Origin: a virus
Lineage: Duplodnaviria > Caudoviricetes
DNA: 52,993 nucleotides
Strand: one strand, 5' to 3'
IMG/VR virus record: IMGVR_UViG_3300048834_000646
Location: 1-52,993 of that record
Under the pieces are notes generated by a model. It ran no database searches, was not told the DNA's origin, and saw only the letters and a list, made by a program, of their open reading frames with translations. Shown here in pieces: positions 3,149 to 42,909 of this stretch. The position numbers and the translations under genes were made by a program. Within the stretch, counting starts at the first letter, position 1; every line of letters begins with the position of its first letter.

Positions 3149-4504
3149 ATGGGAACCACAGGGAACCCCTTCGCTCCCGCAGTGCGCCAGCGACGGCCGA
3201 TGCGTATCGCCGTCACCGGCCCGTCGGGCTCGGGGAAATCAGAAAGCGCGCTGCGGATCGCGCGCCAGATCGTCGGCCCCTCGGGACGCATCGCCGCGAT
3301 CGACACGGAGAACGACGAGCTGCTGCTGTACGCGAACGACCCGGGCATCGGGAGCTTCGATCACGTCTCGTTGCGCCCGCCGTATCACACCTCGAAATAC
3401 CTTGAGCTGATGAGGTTCGCGGTCGACCAGAAATACGACGCGCTCGTCGTCGACTCGATGACGCACCAGTGGGCCGGCGAGGGCGGGATCCTGCAGCGCA
3501 AGGACCTGGCGGACGCGAAGCCGGGAAGCAACCCCTGGGTGAATTGGGGGCCCTTCACGATCGAGCACAACGCCTTCGTCGCCACCCTGCTCAACTATCC
3601 CCTCTGGATCATCTGCACGCTGCGCAGCAAGACCGAGTACACGCAGGAGGGCTCAGGCCGCGGCTCGAAGATCGTCAAGCTCGGGACCGCGCCGATCACG
3701 CGCGAGGGCACCGACTACGAGTTCTCCCTCGTCTTCGACATGGACACCACGCACCACGCGACCGCGATCAAAGGCCGCGGCGCGATCACGGCCAAGTTCG
3801 AGGGGCATCGGCTCGACTTCCGAGATCCGCGCTGGGTGAAGGAGATCCTCGACTGGCAGGCGAGCGCGGAGGAGCCGCCGCCGCCGGTCACCGAGGCGCA
3901 GGTCGCCACGCTGGCCGACCTGGCCAAGGATCCGCTCTGGACCGAGAAGGAGGCCGGGGCGATCCTGAGGAAGGGCTCGCAGCTCCGTCTCGCGAGCGAG
4001 ATGGAGGACTTCCTCGCCGAAGGCGTCGCCGCGCTGGTCGATCGGCGCAGGAAGGCCGGCGGGGAGGAGGGCGAGAGCGAGGCCGAGGACGAGGGAGCCG
4101 GCGAGGGGGAGGATCCCCAGCCGGCCGAGGAGCCGCCGCGGGCGCAGGACGACTTCTCCGAGCCCCCGGCGGTCCTCCTGCAGCAGACGGCCGAGGACGC
4201 GGCGCTCGAGCGGCAGCTCGACGCGGCGCAGGCCGGTGCCGCGGGCGAGGAGCAGCCCTCGCTGCTCCCGAAGGAGCCTGAGGCTGAGCCGGTGCCGAAG
4301 GCGACGCATGCGGTACCGGTCGAGGCCCTCGAGCCGCTCGAGCCGCTCGAGCCGCTCGGCGGCGGATCCGCGCGCGTCGACTGGCGCGGCGTGCTCGGCG
4401 GAAAGGCTCCGACGCCGCCGATCACGGATCCGGTCCCGCTCAAGACCAACCCGCGCCCTTTCGCCCCGGCTCCGGTGAAGGGCGAGGACGATCTTCCTTA
4501 CTGA
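3149..4504 (+). CDS. AAA_24 / Sak4-like ATPase (single-strand annealing) with long acidic C-terminal tail
   Basis: Walker A GPSGSGKS, AIDTE, Walker B LVVDS, WAGEGG; ends GEDDLPY. Confidence 0.8.
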   Translation: MGTTGNPFAPAVRQRRPMRIAVTGPSGSGKSESALRIARQIVGPSGRIAAIDTENDELLLYANDPGIGSFDHVSLRPPYHTSKYLELMRFAVDQKYDALVVDSMTHQWAGEGGILQRKDLADAKPGSNPWVNWGPFTIEHNAFVATLLNYPLWIICTLRSKTEYTQEGSGRGSKIVKLGTAPITREGTDYEFSLVFDMDTTHHATAIKGRGAITAKFEGHRLDFRDPRWVKEILDWQASAEEPPPPVTEAQVATLADLAKDPLWTEKEAGAILRKGSQLRLASEMEDFLAEGVAALVDRRRKAGGEEGESEAEDEGAGEGEDPQPAEEPPRAQDDFSEPPAVLLQQTAEDAALERQLDAAQAGAAGEEQPSLLPKEPEAEPVPKATHAVPVEALEPLEPLEPLGGGSARVDWRGVLGGKAPTPPITDPVPLKTNPRPFAPAPVKGEDDLPY

Positions 4505-4568
4505 CGCCATCCCCGGGCCGCGCGCACCTCCGCGCGCGGTCCCCCGGCGCGTCCGCTCTGGAGCCACT

Positions 4569-5207
4569 ATGTCGTTCCGCGCAGTGTTTTGGGACTTGGA
4601 GACTTCCGGCCTCTCGTTTGAGAAGGGCGCGAAGGTGATCGAGATCGGGGCGCTGATTGTCGAGCCCGATGGGACGGAGGTCGAGCAGTCCTGGCTGCTG
4701 AAGCATCCGGGGCTGCAGCTCTCGCAGGAGATCGTGGATCTCACCGGCATCACCAACGAGCTGCTCGAGGCGGAGGGCCGCGATCCGGCCGCCTGCATGG
4801 CGGAGTTCCTGCCGCTCTTCGATGGCCGGCAGCACGTCACGCACAACGGGCTCCGCTTCGACGTGCCGTTCCTCCTGCACACGGCGCGCGTGACGCTCGG
4901 GCTGACGATCCACGAGGTGGCCGCGCTCTCCGCGGATCTCGATCGCGAGATCCTCGACACCGCCGTGATGTTCAAGGCGCGCAAGCTCCGGGAGGTACCG
5001 CGCCCGGAGGAATCCTTTCACTCCTTCGGCAAGCGGATCATGGCCATTCGCGCGCTGGGCCTGAAATACAATCTGCGCGCCTGCTGCGACTGGCACGGCA
5101 TCGATATCAGCGATCTCCAGCAGCACCGCGCGCTCGGCGACGTGCACGCCACGCGCCGGCTCTTCAACGCCCTCGTGGCGAGCCCGGGCAGCGCCGATGA
5201 GTCGTAA
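4569..5207 (+). CDS. DEDDh 3'-5' exonuclease (DnaQ-like)
   Basis: WDLETSG, HNGLRFD, LDT, HRALGDV motifs. Confidence 0.92.
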   Translation: MSFRAVFWDLETSGLSFEKGAKVIEIGALIVEPDGTEVEQSWLLKHPGLQLSQEIVDLTGITNELLEAEGRDPAACMAEFLPLFDGRQHVTHNGLRFDVPFLLHTARVTLGLTIHEVAALSADLDREILDTAVMFKARKLREVPRPEESFHSFGKRIMAIRALGLKYNLRACCDWHGIDISDLQQHRALGDVHATRRLFNALVASPGSADES

Positions 5208-7514: not shown

Positions 7515-9140
7515 ATGACACAGAAGAGCGACGTAGCGATCGCACCGGCTTTGGCCGAAGTCCCGGCCCTCGCGGCGGAGTTGGAGCAGATCCCGATCGG
7601 CAACCTGAAGGAGTCCCCGCTCAATCCGCGCCAGACGTACGATCGCGCCGAGATGGCGCAGCTGGTGGAGAGCATCCGGACGCACGGCGTGCTCGAGCCG
7701 CTCCGCGCGCGGACGATGGGCGGCGGCCCGCACCTGCTGGTGAGCGGGCACCGCCGGTATCGCGCGGCGAAGGAAGCCGGTCTGTCGGTGGTCCCCGTCT
7801 TCCTCGGGAAGATGACGGACGCGCAGTACCTCGAGCTGCTCACCCTGGGCAACCTGCATCGGAAGGATCTGCATCCGCTCGAGGAGGCGCGCGGATTCGA
7901 GCTCCTGATCAAGGAGCTGCGCTACGACGTGCAGCGCATCGCGGAGCGCGTCGGCCATTCCACCACGCATGTCTACGACCGGCTCAAGCTGCTCAGGCTC
8001 ACGAAGCCCCTGCAGGATCTGTTTCAGGAGGGGCACCTGACGACGGCCCACGCGGTGATCCTCTCGCGCCTTGACGCGGCGAGCCAAGCGCGGGCGCTCG
8101 GCTCCGCGAAGGATCAGTGGCGTAGCTCCGCGATCTTCACCTCGGAGACGCTGCGCGGGCACGAGCCGCTGGCGCTCGAGTCGCGCGGCGCGGATCCGTG
8201 GCACGGCGTGAAGGCCGTCAGCGCGCGCGAGCTGCAGGCGTGGGTCGACAATCATGTGCACTTCAATCCGGCCGCGGAGGATCTCGCGAATCTCTTTCCC
8301 GAGACGCAGCGCGTCCTCGCGGCCGCGAGCACCGGCGACATGAAGGTCGTGCAGATCACGCACGAGCACTATGTGCAGCCCGACGCGCGGCAGGGCAAGA
8401 TCATCGGGCCGCGCTCCTGGAAGCGCGCGGATGGCCAGCTGACGTCGAAGGAGTGCGAGCATAGCGTCGTCGGCGTGATCGCGGCGGGCCCCGGCCGCGG
8501 GGAGGCATTCCGCGTCTGCATTGCGAAGAAGAGCTGCGCGATCCACTGGCGGCAGGAGAAGGCGGAGGCCGCCCGCCGGCAGGCCGATCGCGAGAAGCAC
8601 GGCGGGGCAACGGTCTCGCAGCGGGAGAAGGAGAAGGAGTCGCAGGAGCGTCAGCGCCGCGAGGCGCAGCGCGCCGCGGAGGAGCAGTATCGGAAGAGTC
8701 TGGAGCGGGCACGGCCTGCGATCGTCAAGGCGATCTATGACGTGATCGCGAAGGCCCCGGTCGGCATGACGAGCACAGCCGCGAAGCTCGTGCTGCAGCG
8801 CTGCTCCCATTACGGGGCCAACCGGCCGAAGCTCGCCAAGGCGGGACAGGGAGCCGACGATGTGGTGCGCCTTGCCGCGCTGCAGATCCTGCTCTCGGCC
8901 GCGAACAACTCGTGGTCGCTGCTCCGCGACGGCGGCAAGCAGCTAAAGGAATTTGGCATCGACGTGCGCGCGATCGCGGACGCGGTCACTCCCGCGCCGG
9001 CGCAGAAGGTGAAGGCCGCGAAGAAGGCGAAGCCGGGGGCCAAGGCGAGGCCGGGGGCCAAAGCGAAAAAGGCCGCGGCACCGGCACGCAAGAAGGCGGC
9101 GAAGAAGGCCGCGCCGAAGCGTGGGCGAGGTGCCCGGTGA
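7515..9140 (+). CDS. ParB/Spo0J family protein with histone H1-like Lys/Ala tail
   Basis: PLNPRQ, GVLEPL, SGHRRYRAA, NLHRKDLHPLEEA, HTH IAERVGHS; C-terminal AKKA repeats. Confidence 0.88.
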   Translation: MTQKSDVAIAPALAEVPALAAELEQIPIGNLKESPLNPRQTYDRAEMAQLVESIRTHGVLEPLRARTMGGGPHLLVSGHRRYRAAKEAGLSVVPVFLGKMTDAQYLELLTLGNLHRKDLHPLEEARGFELLIKELRYDVQRIAERVGHSTTHVYDRLKLLRLTKPLQDLFQEGHLTTAHAVILSRLDAASQARALGSAKDQWRSSAIFTSETLRGHEPLALESRGADPWHGVKAVSARELQAWVDNHVHFNPAAEDLANLFPETQRVLAAASTGDMKVVQITHEHYVQPDARQGKIIGPRSWKRADGQLTSKECEHSVVGVIAAGPGRGEAFRVCIAKKSCAIHWRQEKAEAARRQADREKHGGATVSQREKEKESQERQRREAQRAAEEQYRKSLERARPAIVKAIYDVIAKAPVGMTSTAAKLVLQRCSHYGANRPKLAKAGQGADDVVRLAALQILLSAANNSWSLLRDGGKQLKEFGIDVRAIADAVTPAPAQKVKAAKKAKPGAKARPGAKAKKAAAPARKKAAKKAAPKRGRGAR

Positions 9141-10700: not shown

Positions 10701-11360
10701 ATGTCTCCCGCCGCACCACGCCAGAAGAAAGCCCCTGCCCCGCCGGCCGTCAGTCCCGAGGCCGCGGCGGCGGGGATCCCCGACGCCCTCAAGGGCCGGC
10801 GGATGGCCTTCGAGATGATGAGCCCGAAGCGCTGCAAGCCCAACCCTGACAATCCGCGCCGGATCGATGATGACAACCGGGAGCGCCTGAAGGCGGGGAT
10901 CACGCAGCTCGGCTGGGTGGACCCGATCATCCTGCGCGCCGAGAGCCGCGTGATCCTCGGCGGCCATCAGCGGCACGATATCGCGATGGAGCTCAAGTTC
11001 CCGAAGGTGCCGGTCGTCCTGGTGTACGGGCTCAGCGACTCGGAGGCCGAAGCGGTCACGATCATTCTGAACAACCCCGCCGCGCAGGGCGAGTGGGATC
11101 TCGACAAGCTCACCGCGTCCCTCGGCCGGCTCCGGGATCAGGAGTTCCCCCTCGAGCTGACCGGCTTCGATCGCGCGGCCGCGGACAAGATGCTGGCCGG
11201 CGTGCCGGCGCTGGCACCACCGACCTCCCTCGATCCCGGCGACGGCCGGTACCGCGAGCAATACGGCGTGATCGTGATCTGCGCCGACGCGACCGAGCAG
11301 GAGGCGATCTACAACCGCCTGCAGCAGGACGGCCTCGACTGCCGCGTGGTGGTGACCTGA
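10701..11360 (+). CDS. ParB-like (ParB/Srx N-terminal) protein with small C-terminal domain
   Basis: PNPDNPR, GWVDPI, ILGGHQR, LNN..GEWD; C-terminal YGVIVIC..EQEAIYNRL; start could instead be ATG 10803. Confidence 0.85.
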   Translation: MSPAAPRQKKAPAPPAVSPEAAAAGIPDALKGRRMAFEMMSPKRCKPNPDNPRRIDDDNRERLKAGITQLGWVDPIILRAESRVILGGHQRHDIAMELKFPKVPVVLVYGLSDSEAEAVTIILNNPAAQGEWDLDKLTASLGRLRDQEFPLELTGFDRAAADKMLAGVPALAPPTSLDPGDGRYREQYGVIVICADATEQEAIYNRLQQDGLDCRVVVT

Positions 11361-12514
11361 TGCGCGTCACCGTCCGCAATCGCACCAGCGACTTCAACAG
11401 CTACCGCGCGGCGCGCGTCAAGTCGCTCTTCAACGCCGAGAACGGATGCAACTTCGATCTGGAGGCCGAGCTGCCGATCGAGGAGTCGGACTGGCGCGTC
11501 GGCGCGATCGTGGGACCGTCCGGATCCGGCAAGAGCTCGCTCGGCCGTTTGCTCTGGGGGCCCGAGGCGATGTGGTCGCCGGCGTGGCCGTCCGATCAGC
11601 CGATCATCGACGCGATCGCGCCCGGGGCGGACTTCAACGACGTCACCGCCTCGCTGGCGGCCGTGGGCCTCGGCTCGGTGCCGGCGTGGCTCCGGCCCTT
11701 CCCGATCCTCAGCAACGGGGAGCAGTTTCGCGCGAACCTGGCGCGCGTGATCTGCGACGCGCCGGAGCGCGTCGTCATCGATGAGTTTACCTCGGTGGTC
11801 GATCGGCAAATCGCCAAGTTCGGCGCGCTCGCGTTTCAGAAGGCGTGGCGGCGTACGCGTGGGCAGGCCGTGCTCCTGAGCTGTCACTACGACGTGCTCG
11901 AGTGGCTGGAGCCTGACTGGATCTTTGACACCGCGACCGGCCTCTTCGATAGGGGGTCACTTCGGCGGCCCCGCTTTGATCTCGAAATTTTCGAGACGGA
12001 CTGGCGATATTGGCCCCATTTTGAGCCGCATTACTATTTGACACTGCCGAAGATGATCGCGGCGCGCTGCTATGTGGCCACGATCGACGGCGAGCTCGTG
12101 GCGCACGTCGCGGTCGGTACGAAAAACGTCGGCAAGATGGTCGAGGCGCGCGCCTCGCGGATGGTGGTGATGCCGGAGTTTCAAGGAGCCGGGATCGGGA
12201 TCCGATTCCTGAACGCAGTCTGCGAGCTGCAGCTGCGCGGCGAGGGGAGACTTCCCGGCCGGAAGGTCACGACCATTTTTCACACCTCGCACCCCGGCCT
12301 CTGCGCAGGGCTGCGCCGCGATCGCAAGTGGGCGCAAACGAGCGCGGTCCTCCTCGGCACCAACAAGGCGAAGTCCCGCGCCAGCATCAGCAAGTCGCAG
12401 AAGGTCACGCGACCAGGCGCGCCGATCAATGCAGGGTACGGAGGACACTTCCGCGCGGTGCAGGGATTCCGCTACCTCGGTGCCGAGCGCGCCTGCGCGC
12501 CGCAGGGATCGTGA
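11360..12514 (+). CDS. ABC-type ATPase fused to GNAT acyltransferase
   Basis: GPSGSGKS, LSNGE signature, VVIDEF, SCH; GNAT motif A RMVVMPEFQGAGIG; TGATG coupling. Confidence 0.9.
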   Translation: MRVTVRNRTSDFNSYRAARVKSLFNAENGCNFDLEAELPIEESDWRVGAIVGPSGSGKSSLGRLLWGPEAMWSPAWPSDQPIIDAIAPGADFNDVTASLAAVGLGSVPAWLRPFPILSNGEQFRANLARVICDAPERVVIDEFTSVVDRQIAKFGALAFQKAWRRTRGQAVLLSCHYDVLEWLEPDWIFDTATGLFDRGSLRRPRFDLEIFETDWRYWPHFEPHYYLTLPKMIAARCYVATIDGELVAHVAVGTKNVGKMVEARASRMVVMPEFQGAGIGIRFLNAVCELQLRGEGRLPGRKVTTIFHTSHPGLCAGLRRDRKWAQTSAVLLGTNKAKSRASISKSQKVTRPGAPINAGYGGHFRAVQGFRYLGAERACAPQGS

Positions 12515-13236
12515 CCACGACCGCACCGCTTCGCGTCTACCTCTGCGGCCAGCAGGACTTCGGCCGGCGCACGCTGCAGCTGCTCCTCGCCATGCCGGGG
12601 ATCGAGGTCGTCGGCGTCAGCGCGCCGGAAGTCTCGCGCGCCTCGGGGCGGATCGATCGACTCTGGGATCTCGCGCATGAGCATGCGCTGCCCTGCCTCG
12701 CCGCGGGCCAGCTGCGTGCCGAGCTGCTGCCGGCGCGCACCGACCTGATCATCGCCGCCCACTCGCACGATTACCTCGGCCGCCTGACGCGCGCGCGCGC
12801 GACCCTGGGCGCGATCGGGTATCACCCCTCGCTGCTGCCTCGCCATCGCGGGCGGGATGCTGTTCGCTGGACGCTGAAGATGCGCGACCCGATCGCCGGC
12901 GGCACCGTCTTCTGGCTCGGCGACGCGATCGACGCCGGGGATATCGCGGCGCAGGACTGGTGCTGGGTGCTCCCGGACGACACGCCGGCCACGCTCTGGC
13001 GGCAGCGCCTTGCGCCGATGGGCCTGCGGCTCTTCGCTCGAGTCCTCGCGGACCTACAAGCCCGCCAGATCATCCGGGAGCCGCAGGAGGAGGCCGTGGC
13101 CACCTGGGAGCCCTCGTGGGGCCGGGAGCCCCTCTTCCGGCCGGAGTTGCCCCTCCTCGGGGACGGCGGCCCGGGCCGTCTGGCGGGCTGGACCGTCCGC
13201 CGGGGGGAGGGGGGCTGGCGCGGACCGGTGCCTTAG
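12511..13236 (+). CDS. 10-formyl-THF-dependent formyltransferase family (FDH N-terminal-like)
   Basis: GQQDFG, YHPSLLPRHRG, GGTVFW, DAGDI; GTGA overlap. Confidence 0.9.
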   Translation: MTTTAPLRVYLCGQQDFGRRTLQLLLAMPGIEVVGVSAPEVSRASGRIDRLWDLAHEHALPCLAAGQLRAELLPARTDLIIAAHSHDYLGRLTRARATLGAIGYHPSLLPRHRGRDAVRWTLKMRDPIAGGTVFWLGDAIDAGDIAAQDWCWVLPDDTPATLWRQRLAPMGLRLFARVLADLQARQIIREPQEEAVATWEPSWGREPLFRPELPLLGDGGPGRLAGWTVRRGEGGWRGPVP

Positions 13237-26235: not shown

Positions 26236-26961
26236 ATGACAGCACGGGCAAGCGGCACCAACGCGCGAGGGAAGCATCCCGGCGGCCGGCCATCCAAGAT
26301 CACCCGCAAGCTGATTGAGGAGATCGCATTAGCGGTCGAGCGCGGTAACTACTTCGAGACCGCCTGCGCGATGTACGGGATCTCCCGGGTGACGAAGCTC
26401 GCGTGGCTGCGGCGGGGACGATCTGCCATAGAGGCAGCAGAGAAGGCGGGGGCGGAGGACAAAGAGAAGGGAAAGATTGAACCGCAGGAGAAGCTCTACG
26501 TCGAGTTTCTTTACGCAATAGAAATCGCGCAGGCGCGCGCCGAGGCGCACGACCTCGGGATCGTGACCGGCGCGGCGGTCGGCGGCATGGATCAGGGCGA
26601 GGTGGTCGAGACGCGCAAAGAGGTGCCGGTGCTCGCCCCGGATGGGAAGGCGGTGCTCGGCCCGGACGGGATGCCCCTCCGCACGACCGAGGTGACCACG
26701 ACGCGCAAGCTCAGCAAGACGCTCCCCACCTGGCAGGCCGCCGCGTGGAAGCTCGAGCGTCGGGATCCGGCCCGCTTCGGCCGGCGCGTGGTCGATGTCA
26801 ACAACAAGCACCAGAACCCGGACGGCTCGCCGCTGGCAGGTCGCGAGAAGCGCGTCCGGCTGTACCTGCCGCACAACGGCCGCGAGGCGAGCGCGGTGGT
26901 CGATAGCGCGCCGCCGGCACCGCCGGTCGCACCGCCCACGGCGGCGGAGCCGACGCCGTGA
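26236..26961 (+). CDS. terS: Terminase small subunit
   Basis: GGRPSKIT, HTH ACAMYGISRVT, WQAAAWKLERR..FG; position before terL. Confidence 0.8.
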   Translation: MTARASGTNARGKHPGGRPSKITRKLIEEIALAVERGNYFETACAMYGISRVTKLAWLRRGRSAIEAAEKAGAEDKEKGKIEPQEKLYVEFLYAIEIAQARAEAHDLGIVTGAAVGGMDQGEVVETRKEVPVLAPDGKAVLGPDGMPLRTTEVTTTRKLSKTLPTWQAAAWKLERRDPARFGRRVVDVNNKHQNPDGSPLAGREKRVRLYLPHNGREASAVVDSAPPAPPVAPPTAAEPTP

Positions 26962-27326
26962 CCACGCCCAGGACGGAGCCGATCGCGATCCCGCGTCTCT
27001 GCGAGCCGTGCCGGCGTCATCTCCTGATCGGCTCCCTGAGGCTCGGGCCCGAGGATCCGTGGGCGGCCGCCGAGGCGCTGGCGCAGCTGCTGATGCTGCA
27101 GCGCATCGTCCGCGATCGCGCGGTGCAACGGGCCACCGAGCGCGACGCTGCCCGCCTCGAGCCGTACCTCGCCGAGCGGGGATGCCCGGGCTGCGCGTGG
27201 CCACTCCTCCTGGAGGATGCGATCGGCGTCCTGCTGCGCGGCGTCTCCCACGCGGCCGCGGTGCTGCAGTTCACCGCGCGCGACCCCTACCATCCGGTCC
27301 GCCGGCCGCGCCCCCGGCCCGCGTGA
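26958..27326 (+). CDS. hypothetical protein between terS and terL
   Basis: GTGA overlaps on both sides; CEPC and CPGC. Confidence 0.65.
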   Translation: MTTPRTEPIAIPRLCEPCRRHLLIGSLRLGPEDPWAAAEALAQLLMLQRIVRDRAVQRATERDAARLEPYLAERGCPGCAWPLLLEDAIGVLLRGVSHAAAVLQFTARDPYHPVRRPRPRPA

Positions 27327-28699
27327 CCCTCGACGCCGAGGCCGTGGCCGAGGTGACGCTCGGCCCGCAGCCCGGGCCGCAGGAAGCCTTTCTCTCCAGC
27401 TCGGCCGACGTGGCCATCTATGGCGGGCAAGCCGGCGGCGGGAAGTCCTTCGGGCTCCTGCTCGAGGCGGCGCGCCATATCGAGAACCCGCGCTATGGCG
27501 GCGTCATCTTCCGGCGCTCCAACCCCGAGATCATGAACGAGGGCGGGCTCTGGGATACGTCGATGACGATCTATCCCTCCCTCGGCGGCGTGCCGATCGA
27601 GGGCAAGTCGGAGTGGCGCTTTCCGGAGTGGGGATCCACGATCCGGTTCGCCCACCTCGAGCACGAGAAGTCGCGGCTCAGCTGGGGCGGCTCGCAGGTT
27701 CCCTTCTTCGGCTGGGACGAGCTGACCACCTTCACCGAAAAGCAGTTCTGGTACATGCTGATTCGGAACCGCTCGGACTCCGGCGTCCGGGGCTACATGC
27801 GCGCGACGACGAATCCCGACGCGGACTCGTGGGTCGCGCGCCTGGTGAAGTGGTGGGTCGATCAGGAGACGGGGTACGCGATCCCCGAGCGCAGCGGGAT
27901 CCTGCGCTGGATGCACCGGCAGGGGGATGAGATCCTGTGGGCCGACTCGCCCGAGGAGCTGATCGCCGAGCATCCCGACGCGCTGCCGAAATCCTTCACC
28001 TTCATCCCCAGCTCGATCTACGACAATCCGATCCTGCTGAAGGGCAACCCGGACTATCTCGCCTCGCTCAAGGCGCTGCACCTGATCGAGCGCGAGCGCA
28101 TGCTGCGCGGCAACTGGAAGATCCGCGCGGAGGCGGGCAACGTCTTCAACCGCGACAACTTCGAAGTGATCGCCGCGCTGCCCGCGGGCTGGCGCTACAT
28201 GGTCCGCCAGTGGGACAAGGCGAGCAGCTCGGACGGGGATTGGACCGCCGGCGTCCTGCTCGCTTACTATCCATCGGGCATGTACGTGGTGGTCGACGTC
28301 AAGCGGGTGCAGTTCCGTCCCGGGGCGCGCGAGACCCTGATCAAGAACACCGCCTCGCAGGATGGCCGCGCGACGGTCGTCGGGCTCTTCCAGGATCCAG
28401 CCGCCGCCGGCGTCACGGATCTGCACGCCACCGTCACGATGCTCGCCGGCTACTCGATCGAGCACGCCGTCGTCAGCGGCGACAAGGTCACGATGGCGTC
28501 CCCCTGCGCGGCGCAAGCCGAGGTGGGCAACATCAAGGTGCTGCGGGCGGAATGGAACGAGGACTTCCTCGCGGAGCTGCACGCCTTTCCGACGCGCGGC
28601 ATTCCGGATGACCAGGTCGACGGATTGACCGGGGCCTTCAACACGATCACCCGACTCAAGAGCAAGCTCCCCACGAAGGTTTCCTCCCGAGGCGCATGA
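27323..28699 (+). CDS. terL: Terminase large subunit
   Basis: PQPGPQ, YGGQAGGGKS, GWDE, ATTNP, WDKA, DDQVD. Confidence 0.95.
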   Translation: MTLDAEAVAEVTLGPQPGPQEAFLSSSADVAIYGGQAGGGKSFGLLLEAARHIENPRYGGVIFRRSNPEIMNEGGLWDTSMTIYPSLGGVPIEGKSEWRFPEWGSTIRFAHLEHEKSRLSWGGSQVPFFGWDELTTFTEKQFWYMLIRNRSDSGVRGYMRATTNPDADSWVARLVKWWVDQETGYAIPERSGILRWMHRQGDEILWADSPEELIAEHPDALPKSFTFIPSSIYDNPILLKGNPDYLASLKALHLIERERMLRGNWKIRAEAGNVFNRDNFEVIAALPAGWRYMVRQWDKASSSDGDWTAGVLLAYYPSGMYVVVDVKRVQFRPGARETLIKNTASQDGRATVVGLFQDPAAAGVTDLHATVTMLAGYSIEHAVVSGDKVTMASPCAAQAEVGNIKVLRAEWNEDFLAELHAFPTRGIPDDQVDGLTGAFNTITRLKSKLPTKVSSRGA

Positions 28700-30258
28700 T
28701 GAGCGACACTCCCGATATCAAACTGCCCGAGTACGCGGCCGCCGCGCCGATCTGGAAGCAGTCCCGCGACGCGCTCGAGGGGACGCGCACGATCCGCGCG
28801 GCAGGGGAGGATTACCTCGCGCGCTTCGCCGGCGAGGGCGACGACGTGTTCGCGCTGCGCCTGAGCGGCGCGGTGTTCTTCAACGGCTTTGCGCGGACCA
28901 TCCGCGCCATGACCGGCCTCGCCACGCAGCGCCCGCCGAAGAAGGTCGACGTGCCGGCGATGGTGGTGAAGCACATGGAGCGCATCGATCGCCGCGGGCG
29001 ATCGCTCAACGCCTTTCTCTCGTCGTCGCTGGACGAGCTGCTCGCGATGGGCTGCGGCGGCATCTTCGTGGACTCGCCGGCCGTCCCGATCGGGCAACGG
29101 CCCGTCTCGCTGGCCGAGGAGCAGCGCCGCGGCCTGCGGCCGTACTGGATGTGGATCGCGCCGGAGGACGTCACCTGGATCGACTGGCGGCTCGTCGGCT
29201 CGGCGATGGTCGTCTCGCACTTCGTCCGGCGCGCGGTCGAGAGCAAGCCGGACGGCCGCTTCGGCGTCGTGGAGGCGGAGGTCTATTGGGAGTATGTCGC
29301 GCCGCTCACCGGCCCGGTGCAATGGTTCAAGTGGGAGTGGGTCGAGAAGGAGGCGAAGAAGAGCGCGAAGAAGGGTCCGAAGAAAGAGAGCGTGCCGGAG
29401 CTCGAGCTGAAGATCACCAGCGAGGGGACGCTCTCCCCGCGCCTGAAGGGGATCCCGTTCGCCAGCTGCCCCGTCGGCAAGGGCAAGCACGATTTCTATC
29501 GCGTCTCCCCGCTGCTCGACCTGCTCGATATCAATCTCCGCCACTACCAGACCGACGCCGCGCTGCACTGGAACCTGCTGATGCAGGCGTATGGCGTCTC
29601 CGTGCGCCTGGGCGCGGTGCCGGACCTCAACGGCGATCTGCCGCCGGTGCCGATGGGCCCCTCGGTCATGGTGGACATTCAGAACCCGCAGGGCGACTTC
29701 AAGATCGTCGGCCCGCCGAGCGAGGCCTTCGAGCCGCAGATGCGATCGATGCAGATGGACGTCACCAACATGGCCACGATCGGGCTCGCGTTCATGCAGC
29801 CGACGACGCGCGCGGCCGAGACGGCCGAAGCGCGCCGCCTCGACATGCAGGCGGGGCAGGCCACGCTGCGCGACGTGCTCGAGCTCTTCAAGGACTGCGC
29901 GGAGGCGGCGACCGCGTTTCACGCGCAGATCATCGGCAAGGCCGACAAGGACGGCGAGGGCGGCAGTCTCGAGTTCGCCTTCGACTTCGATGACTCGCTG
30001 CTCTCGGCCGATCTGCTCAACGCCCTCAGCAACATGCAGGTGAAGGGACAGCTCACGCTCCCGACGCTGCTCAAGGCGGTCGCACTCGGCAAGCTGCCCG
30101 AGGACTTCGATCCGGAGGAGGAAGCGATCGCGGTCCAGCTGCAGGGCATCCCCATGCCGGGAGACGAGCCGATCATCCCGAAGAAGCCCGATCCCGCGCC
30201 GAAGGATCCGGCCGCGGTGCCGCCGGCCGAGCCTGACGCGCCGGGGACCGGCGCGTGA
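28696..30258 (+). CDS. Portal protein (DUF4055-like)
   Basis: Follows terL; 520 aa; YL, RPYW, PLLDL..NLRHYQ, ETAEA motifs. Confidence 0.88.
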   Translation: MMSDTPDIKLPEYAAAAPIWKQSRDALEGTRTIRAAGEDYLARFAGEGDDVFALRLSGAVFFNGFARTIRAMTGLATQRPPKKVDVPAMVVKHMERIDRRGRSLNAFLSSSLDELLAMGCGGIFVDSPAVPIGQRPVSLAEEQRRGLRPYWMWIAPEDVTWIDWRLVGSAMVVSHFVRRAVESKPDGRFGVVEAEVYWEYVAPLTGPVQWFKWEWVEKEAKKSAKKGPKKESVPELELKITSEGTLSPRLKGIPFASCPVGKGKHDFYRVSPLLDLLDINLRHYQTDAALHWNLLMQAYGVSVRLGAVPDLNGDLPPVPMGPSVMVDIQNPQGDFKIVGPPSEAFEPQMRSMQMDVTNMATIGLAFMQPTTRAAETAEARRLDMQAGQATLRDVLELFKDCAEAATAFHAQIIGKADKDGEGGSLEFAFDFDDSLLSADLLNALSNMQVKGQLTLPTLLKAVALGKLPEDFDPEEEAIAVQLQGIPMPGDEPIIPKKPDPAPKDPAAVPPAEPDAPGTGA

Positions 30259-33213: not shown

Positions 33214-33403
33214 CCAGGCAGCAGGGAGACGCACCGGCCAAGCCGGACGCCTTGAGCTGCATCATCGAGCAGGGATCGACTGGCCAAGCCATCGCCCGCG
33301 CTCACCTTCCGCTCCGTGCTAAGCGCGGGCAAGGATGCTCCCACTAGATCCCGGCCCGCGCGTTTGCGTTCGTGGCCGTGGACAACCCCCCGACGAGGTT
33401 GCC
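33214..33403 (+). ncRNA. Structured 5' leader of the capsid gene (candidate cis-regulatory RNA)
   Basis: Three YAA triloop hairpins, mutually exclusive stems, RBS-occluding stem; no convincing ORF. Confidence 0.45.
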
Positions 33404-34384
33404 ATGTCCATCGGAAAGAAGACGGATTTCAAGATCTACCATGAGCAGTTCTTCGGCGGCCAGCTCGAAGCCATCGTGCAGATGATCGATGGATTCAACG
33501 CGGCCAGCCGGAATGCGCTCGTGCTGCAGTCGAAGCTGCTCAAGGGCGACTACGCTTACGAGTCCTTCATGAACGACATCACCCTGATCACGCGGCGCGA
33601 TCCGACCAGCGTGGCGACCGCCGACGACACGGCGATGACGCAGGGCGAGATGATCAGCGTGAAGCTGAACCGCAAGATCGGCCCGGTCGCGAACACGATC
33701 GACTCCTTCCGCAAGATCGCCGCGGATCCGGAGCTCTTCTCCTTCATGTTCGGCCAGATGTTCGGCCCGAAGAAGGTGCAGGAGATGCTCAACACCGCGA
33801 TCTCGGCGCTGGTGGGCGCGATCGGCACCACCACGGCCAACATGTACACCGTGCCGACGAACGGCGTCCTCAGCTTCTCCGGCCTGGTGAACGGCCTCGC
33901 CAAGTTCGGGGATCAGTCTTCGCGGATCACCGCGTGGGTGATGCACTCGAAGTCCTACTTCGATCTCGTCGGGCAGGCGGTCACGGACAAGGTCTATGGC
34001 GTCGCCGACGTCGCGATCTTCGAAGGGACCACCGGCACGCTCGGCCGGCCGGTCATCGTCACCGATGCCCCGGCGCTCAAGATCTCGAGCGGCGGCTCGG
34101 TGCCGACCTACACCTACGCGACGCTCGGCCTGGTCGAGGGCGCAGCGGTCGTGGAGGAAAGCGAGGAGCAGGAGATCGAGAGCCAGCTGATCACCGGCTT
34201 GGAAAACCTCGTCATGCGGATTCAGGGCGAGTACGCCTACAACCTCGGCCTCAAGGGCTACAAGTACGACGTCACGAGCGGCGGGCTCAACCCGGATGCG
34301 ACCGCGGTCGCGCTCGGCACCAATTGGGACAAGGCCGTGACGTACGACAAGAACCTGGCCGGCGTCCGGATCATCTCCACCTGA
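33404..34384 (+). CDS. Major capsid protein
   Basis: GAGG RBS before ATG 33404; FNAAS, WVMHSK, LGRPVIVTD, GTNW; position after scaffold. Confidence 0.92.
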   Translation: MSIGKKTDFKIYHEQFFGGQLEAIVQMIDGFNAASRNALVLQSKLLKGDYAYESFMNDITLITRRDPTSVATADDTAMTQGEMISVKLNRKIGPVANTIDSFRKIAADPELFSFMFGQMFGPKKVQEMLNTAISALVGAIGTTTANMYTVPTNGVLSFSGLVNGLAKFGDQSSRITAWVMHSKSYFDLVGQAVTDKVYGVADVAIFEGTTGTLGRPVIVTDAPALKISSGGSVPTYTYATLGLVEGAAVVEESEEQEIESQLITGLENLVMRIQGEYAYNLGLKGYKYDVTSGGLNPDATAVALGTNWDKAVTYDKNLAGVRIIST

Positions 34385-38502: not shown

Positions 38503-38840
38503 TCTGGGAGATGGAGTGGGGGCCGTTCCTTGAAAAACTGGCCGGCCCCATCTCCCGCGGTGAGTGTGTTTTCTGGAACGAGCAGCCGGTCGTCCTCGCC
38601 CAAGATCGCTGGCTGCTCGGGGCCTTTCGAGATCTCAACACTTGCCGCACCGTCGGCGTTCGCGATGGCCTGATTCCATGGACGGCCATCGATGCCTATG
38701 CGAGGCGCTATCGCATCGTCGGCGAAGACTTCGAGACCCTGGCCGCGGTGATCCGGCACATGGACCTCTGCTGGATGGAATTCCATAACGAGCGCTCCGC
38801 GAAGGAAGAGGAGCCGGAGCCCGAAGACGATGCCAGCTAA
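38496..38840 (+). CDS. Tail assembly chaperone, frameshift extension (T-like)
   Basis: AFRDLNTCR, IPWTAIDAYA, IRHMD motifs; -1 frame. Confidence 0.8.
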   Translation, partial: RIVWEMEWGPFLEKLAGPISRGECVFWNEQPVVLAQDRWLLGAFRDLNTCRTVGVRDGLIPWTAIDAYARRYRIVGEDFETLAAVIRHMDLCWMEFHNERSAKEEEPEPEDDAS

Positions 38841-41800: not shown

Positions 41801-42909
41801 TGCGAGATCTCTTCGCGGGATCGGTCAAGTCCACCAAGGACATCGACATCCTGATCGCCGAGCTGGAGAAGCTCGGCGGCGGGGCGACCGAGGCGGCCGA
41901 CAAGCTCGCGGCGGCGGAGTCCGCGCGGCAGACGCGCATCTCGCAGGATCTCGAGTCGCAGCTGAGCCAGGCCAAGCTGCGCGGCACCGAGGATCCGGCC
42001 GCCCAGCGCGCCCTCGAGGATCGCCTGCAACAGCTCGCGCAGGAGCGGCGCTACATCGAGGCGACCGCGGAGCTCTACACCGAGCAGCAGCTCGCCACGC
42101 TCCGGCTCCTCGACGCCGAGGAGACGCTGGCCACGCAGCGCGAGCGCGCGGCCGAGGATCAGCAGGCGCAGGCGGCCGCCGAGCGGACCGCCCGGGACTT
42201 CTCGCTGGATCTCCTGCAGCGCGAGGCGGCGCTGTCGCAGGACGCCGACCAGGCGAAAGCGGCCGGGATCGCGATCCTTGCCGCGCGGCAGCAGGACGAG
42301 GCGGCCGCCGCGCAGAAGCTGCTCGATGCCGGCACGCTCACGCAGGAGCAGTTCGAGCGCCTTGCCGCGGTCATGAGCGGGGAGATGATCGCCGCGCTGA
42401 ACAGCACGAGCGGGGCGATCGACCAGATCGCCACGGCCGCGCAGATTCTGAGCGACAACGCCTCGGCCCTGAGTCAGCAGTTCGATGTCTTCGGGACGGA
42501 TCTGGACGAGCAGGTACGCCAGCTGGGCGAGCTCTACGGATTCCAGGGGAAGTCGATCGAGGATCTGCAGGCGCTGTACACCAAGGTGACGCCGGGGGAG
42601 GCAATCTCCGAGGAAGCGAAGACGCTCAACGACGAGATTGCGCGGTTCATTACCTTGCAGCGGCAGGCCGATGCGGCCAACACCGTGAACGCCGGCACGG
42701 CCGACACGGCGCGTACCGCGCGGGCCACCTCCCCGACCGGAAACGTCATCAATGGCAATGTGGCCGTGAGCATCACGATCAACACCACGAGCAACGAGCT
42801 GAACGATCCGGAGCGCTCGGCCGAGGCGATCGCGACGCGCGTGAACCGGATCCTTGGTGGCCGCCTCTCGCTTGAGCGCCGCGCGCGCGGCTTGTCGCTG
42901 ACGGTATGA
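38830..42909 (+). CDS. Tape measure protein
   Basis: 1359 aa, Ala/Gln/Glu helical, Gly-rich hydrophobic patches; follows the chaperones. Confidence 0.92.
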   Translation: MPANVATLRLTIDGSGAISGVSSFSDAARGATAAGEEVKTSAMEVQAAVDAMGRSQTEVAAAIDKESAALAQVSTALAGTAQAQEQFNLATESGRAARDAYFEQLDREVAAENAARQAVEAHMQVVNAQTRATQERGRAEAEAWVQSLKSAEATQVATEAEQKRLASYQKLVASTEKSIVGLKEELALAQANAAGNLEEADAIIASANARRAEIEVQRLSIGRNADEIAQIKLIVAEKQRLVTSLQQTQNASSGTALTNGKLRSSLTSLLTTVAGVPGPVGQVASSLSSMAIGGVVTVGLLAGLTAISYLYEKLTANSRKLREETERLTKSLSEQAQEQAGLKALSDRALLLKQVESAQLSLSRAQARESRPVEFNPRTDLPVSRGYGPSLADAEKKAAEAAEVLAQFDRNASAQLIGSTQALAVARAKATGDLTKIEAAQRAAAIASLEAQINATQGLTVAQKEYLRVTGLATIELDLQAVATEKARASSDARRAQLAQVRTAELDAAIALADAAKDYDAKQRAQAAKTAFEVSQQLIGMDHLNAAEKERYRLARLSGDAIATQAENTRRTEEVEKKRLTTLKASFDSERSLQELVDKGATLRSQLNQSDLAQAQTALEIRHRAEQAALKEAAALDPIIAANIEIRQTQLDVNQGLERQLLQRDVLARTAQEAKDLADLQYQGDQLALALAGKSYEAEVRAIDATYKHAVAALDFARAQGTISEGAYQAQLAQLKHNQSLEQTQVEYKALGGIADQVLSGLSSATDDLFRDLLSGGTDAFAKLAESILGTVQQLAIDLAKIGLLRALVGGDTAGQSQEELVKQLSGKLTKVLADVQKKIGKEGVGAIAGAAVGFGVGSSTGSPLAGGLSGAATGLAVGGPVGAIVGGIGGIVGGLLGHANSIKQIQKTYDTATKNFERSLDEFVKGLTGVYDGYIGQQNRLKDAVAAQGDQALRVFDLSLLSRDLEKFGVDYADLSKILKEEGVEGIKRVRDLFAGSVKSTKDIDILIAELEKLGGGATEAADKLAAAESARQTRISQDLESQLSQAKLRGTEDPAAQRALEDRLQQLAQERRYIEATAELYTEQQLATLRLLDAEETLATQRERAAEDQQAQAAAERTARDFSLDLLQREAALSQDADQAKAAGIAILAARQQDEAAAAQKLLDAGTLTQEQFERLAAVMSGEMIAALNSTSGAIDQIATAAQILSDNASALSQQFDVFGTDLDEQVRQLGELYGFQGKSIEDLQALYTKVTPGEAISEEAKTLNDEIARFITLQRQADAANTVNAGTADTARTARATSPTGNVINGNVAVSITINTTSNELNDPERSAEAIATRVNRILGGRLSLERRARGLSLTV

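What the first reader, a model, noticed from the sequence alone, without database searches (positions are those of the whole stretch)
10701..13236. ParB / ABC-ATPase-GNAT / FDH-like formyltransferase operon: candidate DNA base-formylation system
Seen: three translationally coupled genes (TGATG and GTGA overlaps) encoding a ParB-like protein, a soluble ABC ATPase fused to a GNAT, and a formyltransferase. The formyltransferase reads GQQDFG...IGYHPSLLPRHRG...WTL...GGTVFW...DAGD. It lacks the Asn of the N-x-H motif of Fmt/PurN/ArnA and lacks the tRNA-binding C-terminal domain. Known: this pattern resembles the N-terminal domain of 10-formyl-THF dehydrogenase (ALDH1L1), which passes formyl to a phosphopantetheine thiol; GNATs use acyl-CoA; Mu Mom is a GNAT-fold DNA modifier; ParB-like domains often accompany phage DNA-modifying enzymes. 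Inference: the enzyme could charge CoA (or an amine) with formyl, and the ATP-driven GNAT could transfer it to DNA bases, giving an uncharacterised anti-restriction modification. Similar gene clusters may have been predicted in other phages, but I know of no established chemistry for them.
Basis: partly seen in the sequence, partly recalled or inferred. Interest (0 to 1): 0.85.

Follow-up and report, generated by a model that had tools for sequence, protein, structure and literature searches.

The report
Phage ParB, ABC-GNAT, formyltransferase module
A three-gene phage operon found in over a hundred phage genomes joins a ParB-like adaptor, an ATP-driven acetyltransferase-type enzyme and a formyl-donor enzyme; it probably puts a still unknown chemical mark on phage nucleic acid.

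Summary
Three overlapping + strand genes in a 53-kb phage record encode A (10701-11360; ParB_N domain plus a 35-aa C-terminal domain, CTD), B (11360-12514; soluble ABC ATPase fused to a GNAT) and C (12511-13236; single-domain formyltransferase).

In 137 related loci:
- The CTD lies directly upstream of B in 127 of 129 testable loci. It is fused to ParB_N in 95 of 122.
- C follows B only in one clade of B (47 of 56 loci against 0 of 63).

C is FDH-like. The family profile scores 175 bits on the ALDH1L1 N-domain against 110 bits on Fmt. It lacks the Asn of N-x-H in 74 of 74 members and keeps His, Ser and Asp. FDH and HypX, the two relatives that pass formyl to a pantetheine thiol, also lack that Asn. 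HypX is proposed to make formyl-CoA.

No permease partner, DpdA or DNA methylase was found.

Best reading (about 0.4): a ParB-tethered, ATP-gated N-acyl/formyl transferase that marks phage nucleic acid, most likely DNA, with C supplying formyl-CoA. The target and product are inferred, not shown. No function is in print in the searches run.

The parts
10701..11360 (+). Gene A, 219 aa: ParB_N-type domain plus C-terminal mini-domain. The start may instead be ATG 10803.
   Evidence: AF2 model pLDDT 87.5. Foldseek best hits are pNOB8 ParB-N, Noc and ParB. Homologues align from Met35.
10800..11195 (+). ParB/Srx-fold domain of A (aa 34-165), with the motifs N51-P-R53 and G88-H-Q-R91.
   Evidence: Pfam ParB_N covers aa 37-124. 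phrog_498, a ParB-DNA methyltransferase family, matches at E 8e-31. PADLOC MTase_II N-terminus matches at E 3e-22. G88 is invariant; N51 and R91 are at least 90% conserved.
11247..11357 (+). C-terminal mini-domain (CTD, aa 183-219; strand-helix-strand). This is the constant partner of gene B.
   Evidence: phrog_28816 E 3e-10. Found upstream of B in 127 of 129 loci. The representative library holds 3373 proteins with it, and the domain is C-terminal in 149 of the 150 listed. pLDDT is about 94.
11360..12514 (+). Gene B, 384 aa: soluble ABC ATPase fused to a GNAT acyltransferase.
   Evidence: phrog_11143 matches over the full length, E 4e-146. AF2 pLDDT 90.2. VIA Z is about 15 for each domain.
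11360..11965 (+). ABC ATPase domain (aa 1-202). Motifs: Walker A G52-K58 (11513-11536), signature L117-S-N-G-E-Q122 (11708-11725), Walker B plus catalytic D141-E142 (11780-11785), H-loop H176 (11885-11887).
   Evidence: Invariant or at least 90% conserved columns in 76 sequences. NBD folds match at Z 13-15.
11975..12487 (+). GNAT domain (aa 206-376). The acyl-CoA motif Q275-G-A-G-I-G280 lies at 12182-12199. Clade-specific residues are H249, H308 and the loop G359-Y-G-G-H363. pI is about 10.
12511..13236 (+). Gene C, 241 aa: FDH/HypX-like formyltransferase catalytic domain. G103 (12817-12819) replaces the Asn. H105 is at 12823-12825, followed by S107, and D141 is at 12931-12933. The tail after about aa 203 is low-complexity and not conserved.

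Best explanation
The operon is a self-contained phage module built around an ATP-gated N-acyltransferase.

Shown:
- Gene B is a complete, hydrolysis-competent ABC ATPase fused to a complete GNAT with an intact acyl-CoA motif. It has no membrane partner.
- It is almost always preceded by a 35-aa C-terminal domain. That domain is usually fused to a ParB_N domain of the kind found at the N-terminus of phage DNA methyltransferases.
- In one clade, B is followed by a formyltransferase whose closest relatives pass formyl from 10-formyl-THF to a pantetheine thiol.

Inferred:
- The CTD docks the ParB-like adaptor onto B.
- The adaptor brings B to DNA or opens the DNA for it, as the ParB-like activator does for phage thymine dioxygenases.
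- ATP-driven dimerisation of the ABC domains gates the two basic GNAT domains.
- The GNAT acylates an exocyclic amine of a base in phage DNA after replication.
- In the clade to which this window belongs, gene C charges CoA with formyl (as proposed for HypX), and the GNAT uses formyl-CoA. That GNAT carries three extra conserved histidines.
- The mark would shield the DNA from host nucleases.
For: Genes and motifs:
- Overlapping genes.
- ABC and GNAT motifs are invariant across 76 homologues.
- Both domains of B are modelled with high confidence, with Z about 15 to NBDs and to GNATs.

Against a transporter role:
- Only 2 of 124 loci have a neighbour with 4 or more TM-like segments within 3 genes.
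- All ABC-transporter NCBIfam scores fall far below their cut-offs.

Synteny:
- The CTD lies upstream of B in 127 of 129 loci, and ParB_N shares its frame in 95 of 122.
- C lies directly downstream in 47 of 56 close-clade loci and 0 of 63 distant-clade loci.

The ParB domain and DNA:
- The ParB domain of A is most like the N-terminus of ParB-DNA methyltransferases (phrog_498, E 8e-31; PADLOC MTase_II, E 3e-22).
- ParB folds are often fused to DNA methyltransferases in phages (PMC12704722, passages).
- A phage ParB with an NBD and a CTD but no DNA-binding domain activates a DNA thymine dioxygenase on dsDNA (PMC13229309, abstract and section 9).

Gene C:
- The family profile scores 175 bits (E 1e-50) on FDH N-domains against 110 bits on Fmt.
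- Asn is present in 0 of 74 members, His in 72, Ser in 74 and Asp in 73.
- FDH passes formyl to a 4'-phosphopantetheine arm (PMC8748788, passages).
- HypX is proposed to make formyl-CoA with the same His/Asp machinery (PMC6802093, passages). C. necator HypX reads V-V-H at the motif.

Other points:
- The GNAT domain has pI 10.0.
- H249, H308 and the GYGGH363 loop are confined to the clade linked to C.
- The module is phage-borne: 61 of 50,697 phage records against 3 of 72,556 plasmid records.
- It sits where DNA-modifying genes often sit. It lies just upstream of terS/terL in at least 59 of 91 loci and after the tail-fibre genes in Mu-like phiE255.
Against: - No result here identifies the substrate or the product.
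- The nearest GNAT structures are generic. They are small-molecule and protein N-terminal acetyltransferases (RimI, Naa50, NatA) at tied Z values. Neither TmcA nor Mom appears among the 50 rows shown.
- The ParB_N part is missing in about a quarter of loci, and DUF5131 replaces it in L046. DNA tethering therefore cannot be obligatory.
- Most family members lack C, so formyl transfer is at best a clade-specific variant.
- N-formyl and N-acyl groups on base amines are chemically labile, and I know of no GNAT that uses formyl-CoA (recalled, not tested).
- The lack of Asn may have reasons other than a thiol acceptor. The pattern rests on two thiol-directed and two amine-directed reference enzymes.
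- The window holds no other DNA-modification gene that would give context.
Confidence: 0.4

Rival explanations
1. Two-step hypermodification. The ABC-GNAT first attaches an amine-bearing acyl or aminoacyl group to a base, or another enzyme supplies an amine. Gene C then formylates that amine directly from 10-formyl-THF, as PurN does with GAR and as DpdN is predicted to do with dPreQ1. Formyl-CoA plays no part.
For: - Most members of Formyl_trans_N formylate amines (hit lists).
- A formylated amine (fdPreQ1) exists in phage DNA, with a PF00551 enzyme predicted to make it (PMC10516641, passages).
- C is an add-on found in only one clade, as decorating enzymes usually are.
Against: - C's closest relatives by 65 bits are the thiol-directed FDH N-domains.
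- The Asn present in the amine-directed Fmt and PurN is absent in 74 of 74 members.
- No DpdA/TGT is present in the window.
Confidence: 0.15
2. Protein target. The ABC-GNAT acylates (and, with C, formylates) an N-terminus or a lysine of a phage or host protein, for example a packaging, virion or host defence protein. The ParB-like protein acts only as an NTP-dependent regulator or scaffold.
For: - GNAT neighbours include RimI (Z 13.9), Naa50, Ard1 and NatA (Z 13-13.6).
- The module is adjacent to terS, terL and portal genes in most loci.
- ParB_N is dispensable in a quarter of loci.
- Soluble ABC ATPases such as the Mcr A2 component, PhnK/L and SufC-like proteins act on protein complexes (rows).
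Against: - Those Z values are tied with small-molecule GNATs.
- The module also occurs far from packaging genes, both in this window (TerL at 26795) and in Mu-like phages.
- The ParB domain type is the one fused to DNA methyltransferases.
Confidence: 0.2
3. RNA or aminoacyl-tRNA target. The GNAT blocks or marks tRNA, aminoacyl-tRNA or rRNA in an ATP-dependent way, like TmcA or the GNAT toxins, and C acts on Met-tRNA or a related amine. The result would be takeover of translation.
For: - Fmt is the second-closest family to C.
- TmcA-type enzymes show that an ATPase plus a GNAT can acetylate a nucleobase (recalled).
- The GNAT is basic.
Against: - C lacks the tRNA-binding C-terminal domain and scores 53.5 against the Fmt cut-off of 201.5.
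- Nothing in the neighbourhoods concerns translation.
- The ParB type points to DNA.
Confidence: 0.12
4. The database annotations are right. B is the ATPase of an ABC transporter and C is an auxiliary purine-biosynthesis PurN, that is, metabolic morons. A variant is that the module acts on a small molecule, such as a nucleotide or a defence signal.
For: - Records name B as an ABC transporter and C as 'cyanobacterial phosphoribosylglycinamide formyltransferase'.
- The 2010 phiE255 paper suggested import or export (PMC2920897, passages).
- Small-molecule GNATs top the fold list (1y9k, Z 15.1).
Against: - There is no permease neighbour (2 of 124 loci).
- PurN scores 37.2 against a cut-off of 150.1, and every transporter model falls far below its cut-off.
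- B is fused to a GNAT and tightly linked to a ParB-type protein.
Confidence: 0.1

Closest known systems
N-terminal (hydrolase/formyl-transfer) domain of 10-formyl-THF dehydrogenase, ALDH1L1/FDH
   Same: It is the best match of gene C, both singly (E 6e-23) and as a family profile (E 1e-50, 175 bits, covering the whole domain). The H-P-S-L-L-P-R-H-R-G block is shared. His, Ser and Asp are kept. There is no Asn two residues before the His (alignment).
   Different: FDH carries a carrier domain and an aldehyde dehydrogenase domain in the same chain and is eukaryotic. C is the catalytic domain alone, phage-borne, and coupled to a GNAT rather than to a carrier protein.
HypX/HoxX N-terminal domain (proposed N10-formyl-THF:CoA formyltransferase of [NiFe]-hydrogenase maturation)
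   Same: It belongs to the same Formyl_trans_N fold family (6j1f, E 6e-15 to the profile). It uses His/Asp catalysis, lacks the Asn (V-V-H in C. necator HypX), and its acceptor is the thiol of free CoA (PMC6802093). This is the chemistry proposed here for C.
   Different: The relationship is distant: pairwise BLAST gives E 0.018 for the best segment, which lies outside the catalytic core, and 0.22 for the segment spanning the His motif. HypX has Asp80 in place of the Ser. It is fused to an enoyl-CoA-hydratase-like decarbonylase, so its formyl-CoA ends as CO and not in an acyl transfer. The authors state that direct experimental proof of formyl-CoA formation was not yet available.
ParB-dependent phage thymine dioxygenases (5mYOX176 with ParB176)
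   Same: A phage ParB-like protein has an N-terminal NTP-binding domain and a short C-terminal domain but no DNA-binding domain. It is encoded next to a DNA-base-modifying enzyme and is needed for that enzyme to act on dsDNA (PMC13229309).
   Different: The enzyme partner there is an Fe/2OG dioxygenase, not an ABC-GNAT. Homology between the two C-terminal domains was not tested. Here the CTD also exists without ParB_N.
ParB_N-DNA methyltransferase fusions of phages and plasmids (phrog_498; PADLOC MTase_II PDLC03229)
   Same: The ParB domain of gene A matches their N-terminal domain better than it matches partition ParBs.
   Different: In those proteins the modifying enzyme is fused covalently and uses SAM. 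Here the enzyme is a separate protein, and the link would be the CTD. No methyltransferase is present in the window.
TmcA/NAT10-type ATP-dependent cytidine N4-acetyltransferases (recalled)
   Same: They follow the same logic: a P-loop ATPase joined to a GNAT that acylates the exocyclic amine of a base in a nucleic acid, using acetyl-CoA and ATP hydrolysis.
   Different: Their ATPase is helicase-like, not an ABC, and their substrate is RNA. No TmcA chain appeared among the 50 rows shown, which does not exclude a relationship. The comparison rests on recall, not on a test.
Phage Mu Mom (GNAT-like adenine modifier; recalled) and DpdN (predicted dPreQ1 formyltransferase)
   Same: Mom shows that a GNAT-fold enzyme can modify phage DNA. 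In Mu-like phiE255 the module sits at the end of the late operon, much as mom does in Mu (recalled). DpdN shows a PF00551 enzyme linked to a formylated base in phage DNA.
   Different: Mom has no ATPase, ParB or formyltransferase partner. DpdN depends on the 7-deazaguanine pathway, which the window lacks. In addition, C found no Flavobacterium phage record at E 1e-5.

Membership tests
ABC ATPase superfamily | Walker A, ABC signature (LSGGQ-like), Walker B with catalytic Glu, H-loop, and an NBD fold | tested here: met
   G52/S54/G55/G57/K58, L117/S118/G120, D141/E142 and H176 are invariant or at least 90% conserved in 76 sequences. NBD chains match at Z 13-15 over 175-188 residues. Pfam ABC_tran scores 28.7 against a cut-off of 25. 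The Q-loop was not assessed.
ABC transporter (as annotated in public records) | A membrane permease partner encoded nearby, and a score above an equivalog cut-off | tested here: not met
   Only 2 of 124 loci have a neighbour within 3 genes with 4 or more TM-like segments. The best NCBIfam transporter model, FtsE, scores 36.3 against a cut-off of 264.85.
GNAT acyl-CoA N-acyltransferases | GNAT fold and the acyl-CoA pyrophosphate-binding motif Q/R-x-x-G-x-G/A | tested here: met
   Q275, G276, G278 and G280 are invariant. 1y9k matches at Z 15.1, rmsd 2.9 A, 136 residues aligned, over model residues 206-376. Acetyltransf_7 and Acetyltransf_1 score above their cut-offs.
Formyl_trans_N (PF00551) | Pfam gathering score, and a His/Ser/Asp catalytic set | tested here: met
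   Score 61.8 bits against a cut-off of 26.1. His is present in 72 of 74 members, Ser in 74 of 74 and Asp in 73 of 74.
Methionyl-tRNA formyltransferase (Fmt, TIGR00460) | Equivalog cut-off, Asn of N-x-H, and the C-terminal tRNA-binding domain | tested here: not met
   Score 53.5 against a cut-off of 201.5. Gly replaces the Asn. Pfam finds only Formyl_trans_N, and the protein is 241 aa long.
GAR transformylase PurN (TIGR00639) | Equivalog cut-off, and the Asn of N-x-H | tested here: not met
   Score 37.2 against a cut-off of 150.1. The Asn is absent.
10-formyl-THF dehydrogenase (ALDH1L1) | Three-domain chain: formyl-transfer N-domain, 4'-PP carrier domain and ALDH domain | tested here: not met
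   Only the N-domain is matched (query 8-202 to chain 24-225; profile 1-196). C ends at residue 241. C works like the N-domain but is not a member of the full enzyme family.
Canonical partition ParB (TIGR00180) | ParB_N plus an HTH DNA-binding domain plus a dimerisation domain, and the model cut-off | tested here: not met
   Score 25 against a cut-off of 58.45. The AF2 model shows ParB_N, a linker and a 35-aa CTD, with no HTH domain. ParB_N itself is met, at 29.5 against 26.3.
DpdN / 7-deazaguanine DNA modification | Co-encoded DpdA (TGT family) and the preQ pathway | tested here: not met
   No TGT match in the record at E 0.01, while the control rang in 14 of 14 genomes. The record is estimated to be 77% complete, so a gene on the missing part is not excluded.
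TmcA-like ATP-dependent nucleobase acetyltransferases | Helicase-type ATPase, GNAT and an RNA-binding domain | tested here: inconclusive
   The ATPase here is an ABC, not a helicase type. No TmcA chain appears among the 50 rows shown, which does not exclude a relationship. No direct comparison was run.
Mom-type DNA modifiers | Mom-like GNAT core acting on adenine in DNA | not tested
   No Mom sequence or model was compared. Only 4 PHROG families matched B at E 0.01, and none was named as Mom.

The most novel reading that the evidence does not exclude
A widespread, phage-specific writer of a previously unknown N-formyl (in other clades N-acyl) mark on DNA bases. An FDH/HypX-like enzyme makes formyl-CoA on the spot. 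An ATP-gated ABC-GNAT dimer with a clade-specific histidine cluster transfers the formyl group to an exocyclic amine. A ParB-like adaptor, held through a 35-aa docking domain, loads the enzyme on double-stranded DNA. This would be the first GNAT known to use formyl-CoA and the first DNA-modifying enzyme driven by an ABC ATPase.
Probability: 0.15. Interest if true: 0.9.

Novelty: new variant of a known kind. Interest (0 to 1): 0.66.

Why it matters
The family is large and uncharacterised.
- 3,373 representative clusters carry the docking domain.
- Cultured carriers infect Gordonia, Burkholderia, Pseudomonas, Porphyromonas, Streptococcus, Lactococcus and Leptospira.
- Public records still label the genes as 'ABC transporter', 'PurN', 'tRNA-methyltransferase' or 'acr candidate'.

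If the module writes a mark on DNA, several things would follow:
- a new base modification and a new way to escape restriction;
- a second biological use for formyl-CoA;
- a new role for soluble ABC ATPases;
- a second example of ParB-like proteins serving as loaders of DNA-modifying enzymes.

Such a mark would also affect sequencing and cloning of these phages. Even if the target turns out to be a protein or RNA, the tightly linked pair of mini-domain and ABC-GNAT is a well-defined two-component system that can be tested directly.

Tried and rejected
- Complex prediction of B (alignment A1) with the CTD (alignment A2): score 0.00, no verdict. This is no evidence either way.
- PADLOC gave no defence-system match for B or C beyond P-loop fragments.
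- Foldseek against BFVD gave only one full-length relative (Leptospira phage LE4 'GNAT', TM 0.78) and generic ABC or GNAT proteins.
- The Protein Atlas returned only the family's own clusters, mostly viral.
- Longer forms of B (14 proteins, 8 of them scanned) showed inteins, duplicated P-loop domains and a probable run-on into a terminase, but no informative fusion.
- An ASCH protein lies next to the module in S. pyogenes prophage 315.4. It was not found in any of the fetched loci by tblastn, so the lead towards N4-acylcytosine was dropped.
- Promoter and terminator scan: 0 promoter-like sites and 1 terminator-like site inside B, which is chance level.
- Sequencing runs: 5 listed, all holding under a tenth of the words and kept as contigs, with no RNA holder listed and no long-read raw data.
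- Literature: ten searches found no paper that assigns a function to the module.
- The 2020 classification of ABC ATPases by Krishnan et al. (cited in PMC12839542) is not held, so it may already list this family.
- Supplementary tables of PMC10516641 could not be opened. They list 15 phages that carry a DpdN-like protein but no deazaguanine genes, and these may include this family.
- Coordinate slips: searches returned stop-codon errors. They were corrected.


Full report
**What is there**

The window is a linear IMG/VR virus record of 52,993 bases, about 69% G+C, estimated 77% complete. It carries recognisable phage genes:
- a Sak4-like ATPase;
- a DNA polymerase exonuclease subunit;
- a Gam-like protein;
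- a large ParB-like protein (7515-9140);
- TerL (26795-28699), portal (28696-30258) and major head protein (33335-34384).

A runs 10701-11360, B 11360-12514 and C 12511-13236. The overlaps are TGATG and GTGA.

Pfam gives ParB_N for A, ABC_tran plus GNAT families for B, and Formyl_trans_N alone for C, all above their cut-offs.

PHROGs adds three points:
- B matches phrog_11143 (unknown function) over its full length (E 4e-146).
- C matches phrog_9240 (E 6e-53).
- The last 35 residues of A match a separate 54-position family, phrog_28816 (E 3e-10).

The start of A is uncertain. Homologues align only from Met35 (ATG 10803), and the first 34 residues are Pro/Ala-rich.

**The module in other genomes**

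tblastn finds B in 61 of 50,697 phage records, and 36 of these cover at least 80% of it. By the first word of the record name, the commonest are Gordonia, Streptococcus, Porphyromonas, Aeromonas, Leptospira and Burkholderia phages. Pseudomonas, Lactococcus and Oenococcus phages also appear.

C occurs in only 16 phage records. B occurs in only 3 of 72,556 plasmid records.

Gene order in cultured phages:
- phiE255 and Komp_PAO1_1 read small ORF, B, C after the tail-fibre assembly gene.
- Gordonia phage Axumite reads ParB-like, B, C, terminase as genes 1-4.
- A Porphyromonas phage reads a 42-aa 'acr candidate', B, then a short formyltransferase.

I fetched 57 loci from one-genome-per-species contigs. 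I also fetched 80 loci from viral contigs; these were the best 80 of 172 matches.

Counts use profile HMMs built from my alignments:
- The CTD lies within 1.3 kb upstream of B in 127 of 129 loci that have at least 250 nt upstream. After collapsing B at 85% identity this is 70 of 72. The misses are L049 and L054.
- A ParB_N domain lies in the same open frame as the CTD in 95 of 122 loci with at least 800 nt upstream (48 of 66 non-redundant).
- Elsewhere the CTD is a free protein of 36-84 residues. In L046 it is fused to DUF5131.

C lies directly downstream of B in 47 of 56 loci where the ABC part of B is at least 55% identical to the window's (23 of 27 non-redundant). It lies downstream in 0 of 63 of the more distant loci (0 of 41 non-redundant).

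Loci without an intact B frame (L102, L103), or without an ABC match (L060), were left out of these counts.

Searching 1.84 billion representative proteins with the CTD profile gave 3,373 proteins at E 0.001 and 718 at E 1e-10. In 149 of the 150 listed, the domain is at the extreme C-terminus of a protein of 40-237 residues.

The core of the system is therefore CTD plus ABC-GNAT. ParB_N is a frequent N-terminal addition to the CTD protein, and the formyltransferase is a clade-specific third component.

**Position in phage genomes**

One BLAST-linked TerL cluster (representative: phrog_2, E 2e-52) lies downstream of B in 59 of 91 loci that have at least 3.5 kb downstream. In 80 of the cluster's 83 members TerL starts 28-1914 nt after B, and in the other 3 it lies upstream. 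TerS-like ORFs lie between B and TerL. Other terminase families, as in Axumite, are not counted, so the true fraction is higher.

In this window and in the Mu-like phages the module is far from the packaging genes. It therefore moves as an autonomous unit.

**Gene B**

Across 76 homologues the following are invariant or nearly so:
- the Walker A residues;
- L117-S-x-G120 of the signature;
- D141-E142;
- H176;
- the GNAT motif Q275-G-x-G-x-G280.

The AlphaFold2 model has pLDDT 90.2. It shows an NBD (residues 1-202) and a full GNAT (206-376) with an inserted basic helix and loop.

VIA-align gives Z about 15 to transporter-type NBDs and to generic GNATs:
- 1y9k: Z 15.1, rmsd 2.9 A, 136 residues aligned;
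- RimI 5isv: Z 13.9;
- Naa50, Ard1 and NatA: Z 13-13.6.

These values are tied, so the fold does not name the substrate.

There is no permease partner: only 2 of 124 loci have a neighbour with 4 or more TM-like segments. All transporter models score far below their cut-offs. The 'ABC transporter' label is therefore wrong.

The GNAT half has pI 10.0 and the ABC half 5.1.

Residues H249, H308 and an inserted G-Y-G-G-H363 loop are 100% conserved in the clade linked to C. In the other clade they are replaced or absent. From GNAT topology, H308 on strand 5 and H363 before strand 7 should lie near the acyl-transfer site. This placement is an inference, because no coordinates were available to me.

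**Gene C**

The single sequence hits ALDH1L1 N-domains at E 6e-23 and Fmt at 7e-13.

A profile of 33 family members gives:
- ALDH1L1 N-domains: E 1e-50 (175 bits), covering the whole domain;
- Fmt: E 1e-30 (110 bits);
- sugar formyltransferases and ArnA: about 78-87 bits;
- PurN: about 55-62 bits;
- HypX/HoxX: 58 bits.

In 74 phage-type sequences the residue two before the catalytic His is G in 66, I in 6, Q in 1 and V in 1. It is never N. His is kept in 72, Ser in 74 and Asp in 73. E. coli Fmt and PurN have N at that place.

Two relatives also lack the Asn:
- FDH reads I-Y-H (alignment). Its N-domain hands formyl to the 4'-phosphopantetheine thiol of its carrier domain, and in vitro it needs sulfhydryls (PMC8748788, passages).
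- C. necator HypX reads V-V-H. Its N-domain is proposed, from structures, to pass formyl from N10-formyl-THF to bound CoA and so give formyl-CoA. The authors note that direct proof is lacking (PMC6802093, passages).

The two known thiol-directed members thus lack the Asn, and so does the phage family. That correlation is my inference from four reference enzymes.

C has no Formyl_trans_C domain, and its tail after residue 203 is not conserved.

**Gene A**

The model has pLDDT 87.5. It shows a ParB/Srx fold (residues 34-165), a disordered linker, and a confident strand-helix-strand CTD whose strands have no partner within the chain.

Foldseek finds pNOB8 ParB-N, Noc, ParB and KorB, and more weakly sulfiredoxin.

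The ParB part is closest to the N-terminal domain of ParB-DNA methyltransferase fusions (phrog_498, E 8e-31; PADLOC MTase_II, E 3e-22). It scores below the cut-off for partition ParB.

Two recent papers bear on this:
- A survey reports ParB folds frequently fused to DNA methyltransferases in phages, and notes varied NTP specificity (PMC12704722, passages).
- A phage ParB with an NBD and a CTD but no DNA-binding domain is required for a thymine dioxygenase to act on dsDNA (PMC13229309, abstract and section 9).

**How it most likely works**

Shown: the enzymes are intact, they are tightly and specifically linked, and they are phage-borne.

Inferred: the CTD docks the adaptor to B; the adaptor gives access to DNA; ATP-dependent NBD dimerisation gates the GNAT pair; the GNAT N-acylates a base; and in this clade C supplies formyl-CoA.

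I put about 0.4 on the general reading of a ParB-tethered, ATP-gated acyl/formyl transferase acting on phage nucleic acid, most likely DNA. I put about 0.15 on the full formyl-CoA-to-DNA scheme.

The rivals are a protein target, an RNA or aminoacyl-tRNA target, direct formylation of an amine by C, and a small-molecule or metabolic role. None is excluded. They are weighed in their own sections.

**Limits**

- No tool here can see a modified base.
- The complex prediction gave no verdict.
- No DpdA, N6/N4 methylase or C5 methylase is present in the record, which is incomplete.
- Ten literature searches found no functional study. One relevant classification paper and the supplements of another could not be read (see Tried and rejected).

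**Verdict**

The module is an undescribed variant of ParB-assisted phage modification systems and merits an experiment.

Noticed in passing
window 7515-9140 (+): A second, larger ParB-like protein (541 aa) lies 1.5 kb upstream of the module. It matches phrog_4715 at E 2e-31 and has a Lys/Ala-rich C-terminal tail. The phage therefore carries two different ParB-fold proteins.
   Followed up: partly
proteins P0392, P0393 (homologues of gene B): Some ABC-GNAT homologues are interrupted by inteins. P0392 has Intein_splicing. P0393 carries homing-endonuclease families in the precomputed Pfam list (names recalled).
   Followed up: partly
L046:5243-6007: In an Ignavibacteriales contig the CTD is fused to a DUF5131 domain (PF07505, E 3e-54) instead of ParB_N. 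The docking domain can therefore recruit a different partner.
   Followed up: partly
window 12104-12106, 12281-12283, 12434-12451 (B residues H249, H308, G359-F364): Two histidines and a GYGGHF insert, which holds a third, are fully conserved only in the B clade that is followed by the formyltransferase. This could be a metal or catalytic site tied to the clade's chemistry.
   Followed up: partly
L141 (S. pyogenes prophage 315.4) 4010-5079: The B homologue is annotated as two ORFs (225 aa ABC plus an 89-aa ORF), and tblastn matches it in two pieces. It may be frameshifted or decayed. An ASCH-domain gene follows it.
   Followed up: partly
L087, L090-L098, L116: Close-clade loci keep the histidine signature of B but have no formyltransferase downstream. 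A 69-73-aa ORF follows B in 8 loci; the cluster representative is in L098. Whether a formyltransferase lies elsewhere in those genomes is unknown.
   Followed up: no
protein P0396 and Atlas row 24: ABC-GNAT relatives occur in eukaryotic algae (Emiliania huxleyi, 876 aa; a Chlorophyta cluster). These may be of viral origin.
   Followed up: no
L142 3876-4004 (Porphyromonas phage): The free CTD mini-protein is annotated as an 'acr candidate'. Its constant pairing with the ABC-GNAT argues that the label is a by-product of its small size and acidity.
   Followed up: partly
window 38830-42909 and 42906-47009 (+): Two very long adjacent ORFs (1359 and 1367 aa) lie in the structural region. The first has no PHROG match at E 0.001.
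   Followed up: no
L085 and L101 (His to Pro), L102 (Asp to Gly), L008 (internal stop): A few formyltransferase copies have lost a catalytic residue or carry a stop. This suggests occasional decay of gene C while B stays intact.
   Followed up: no
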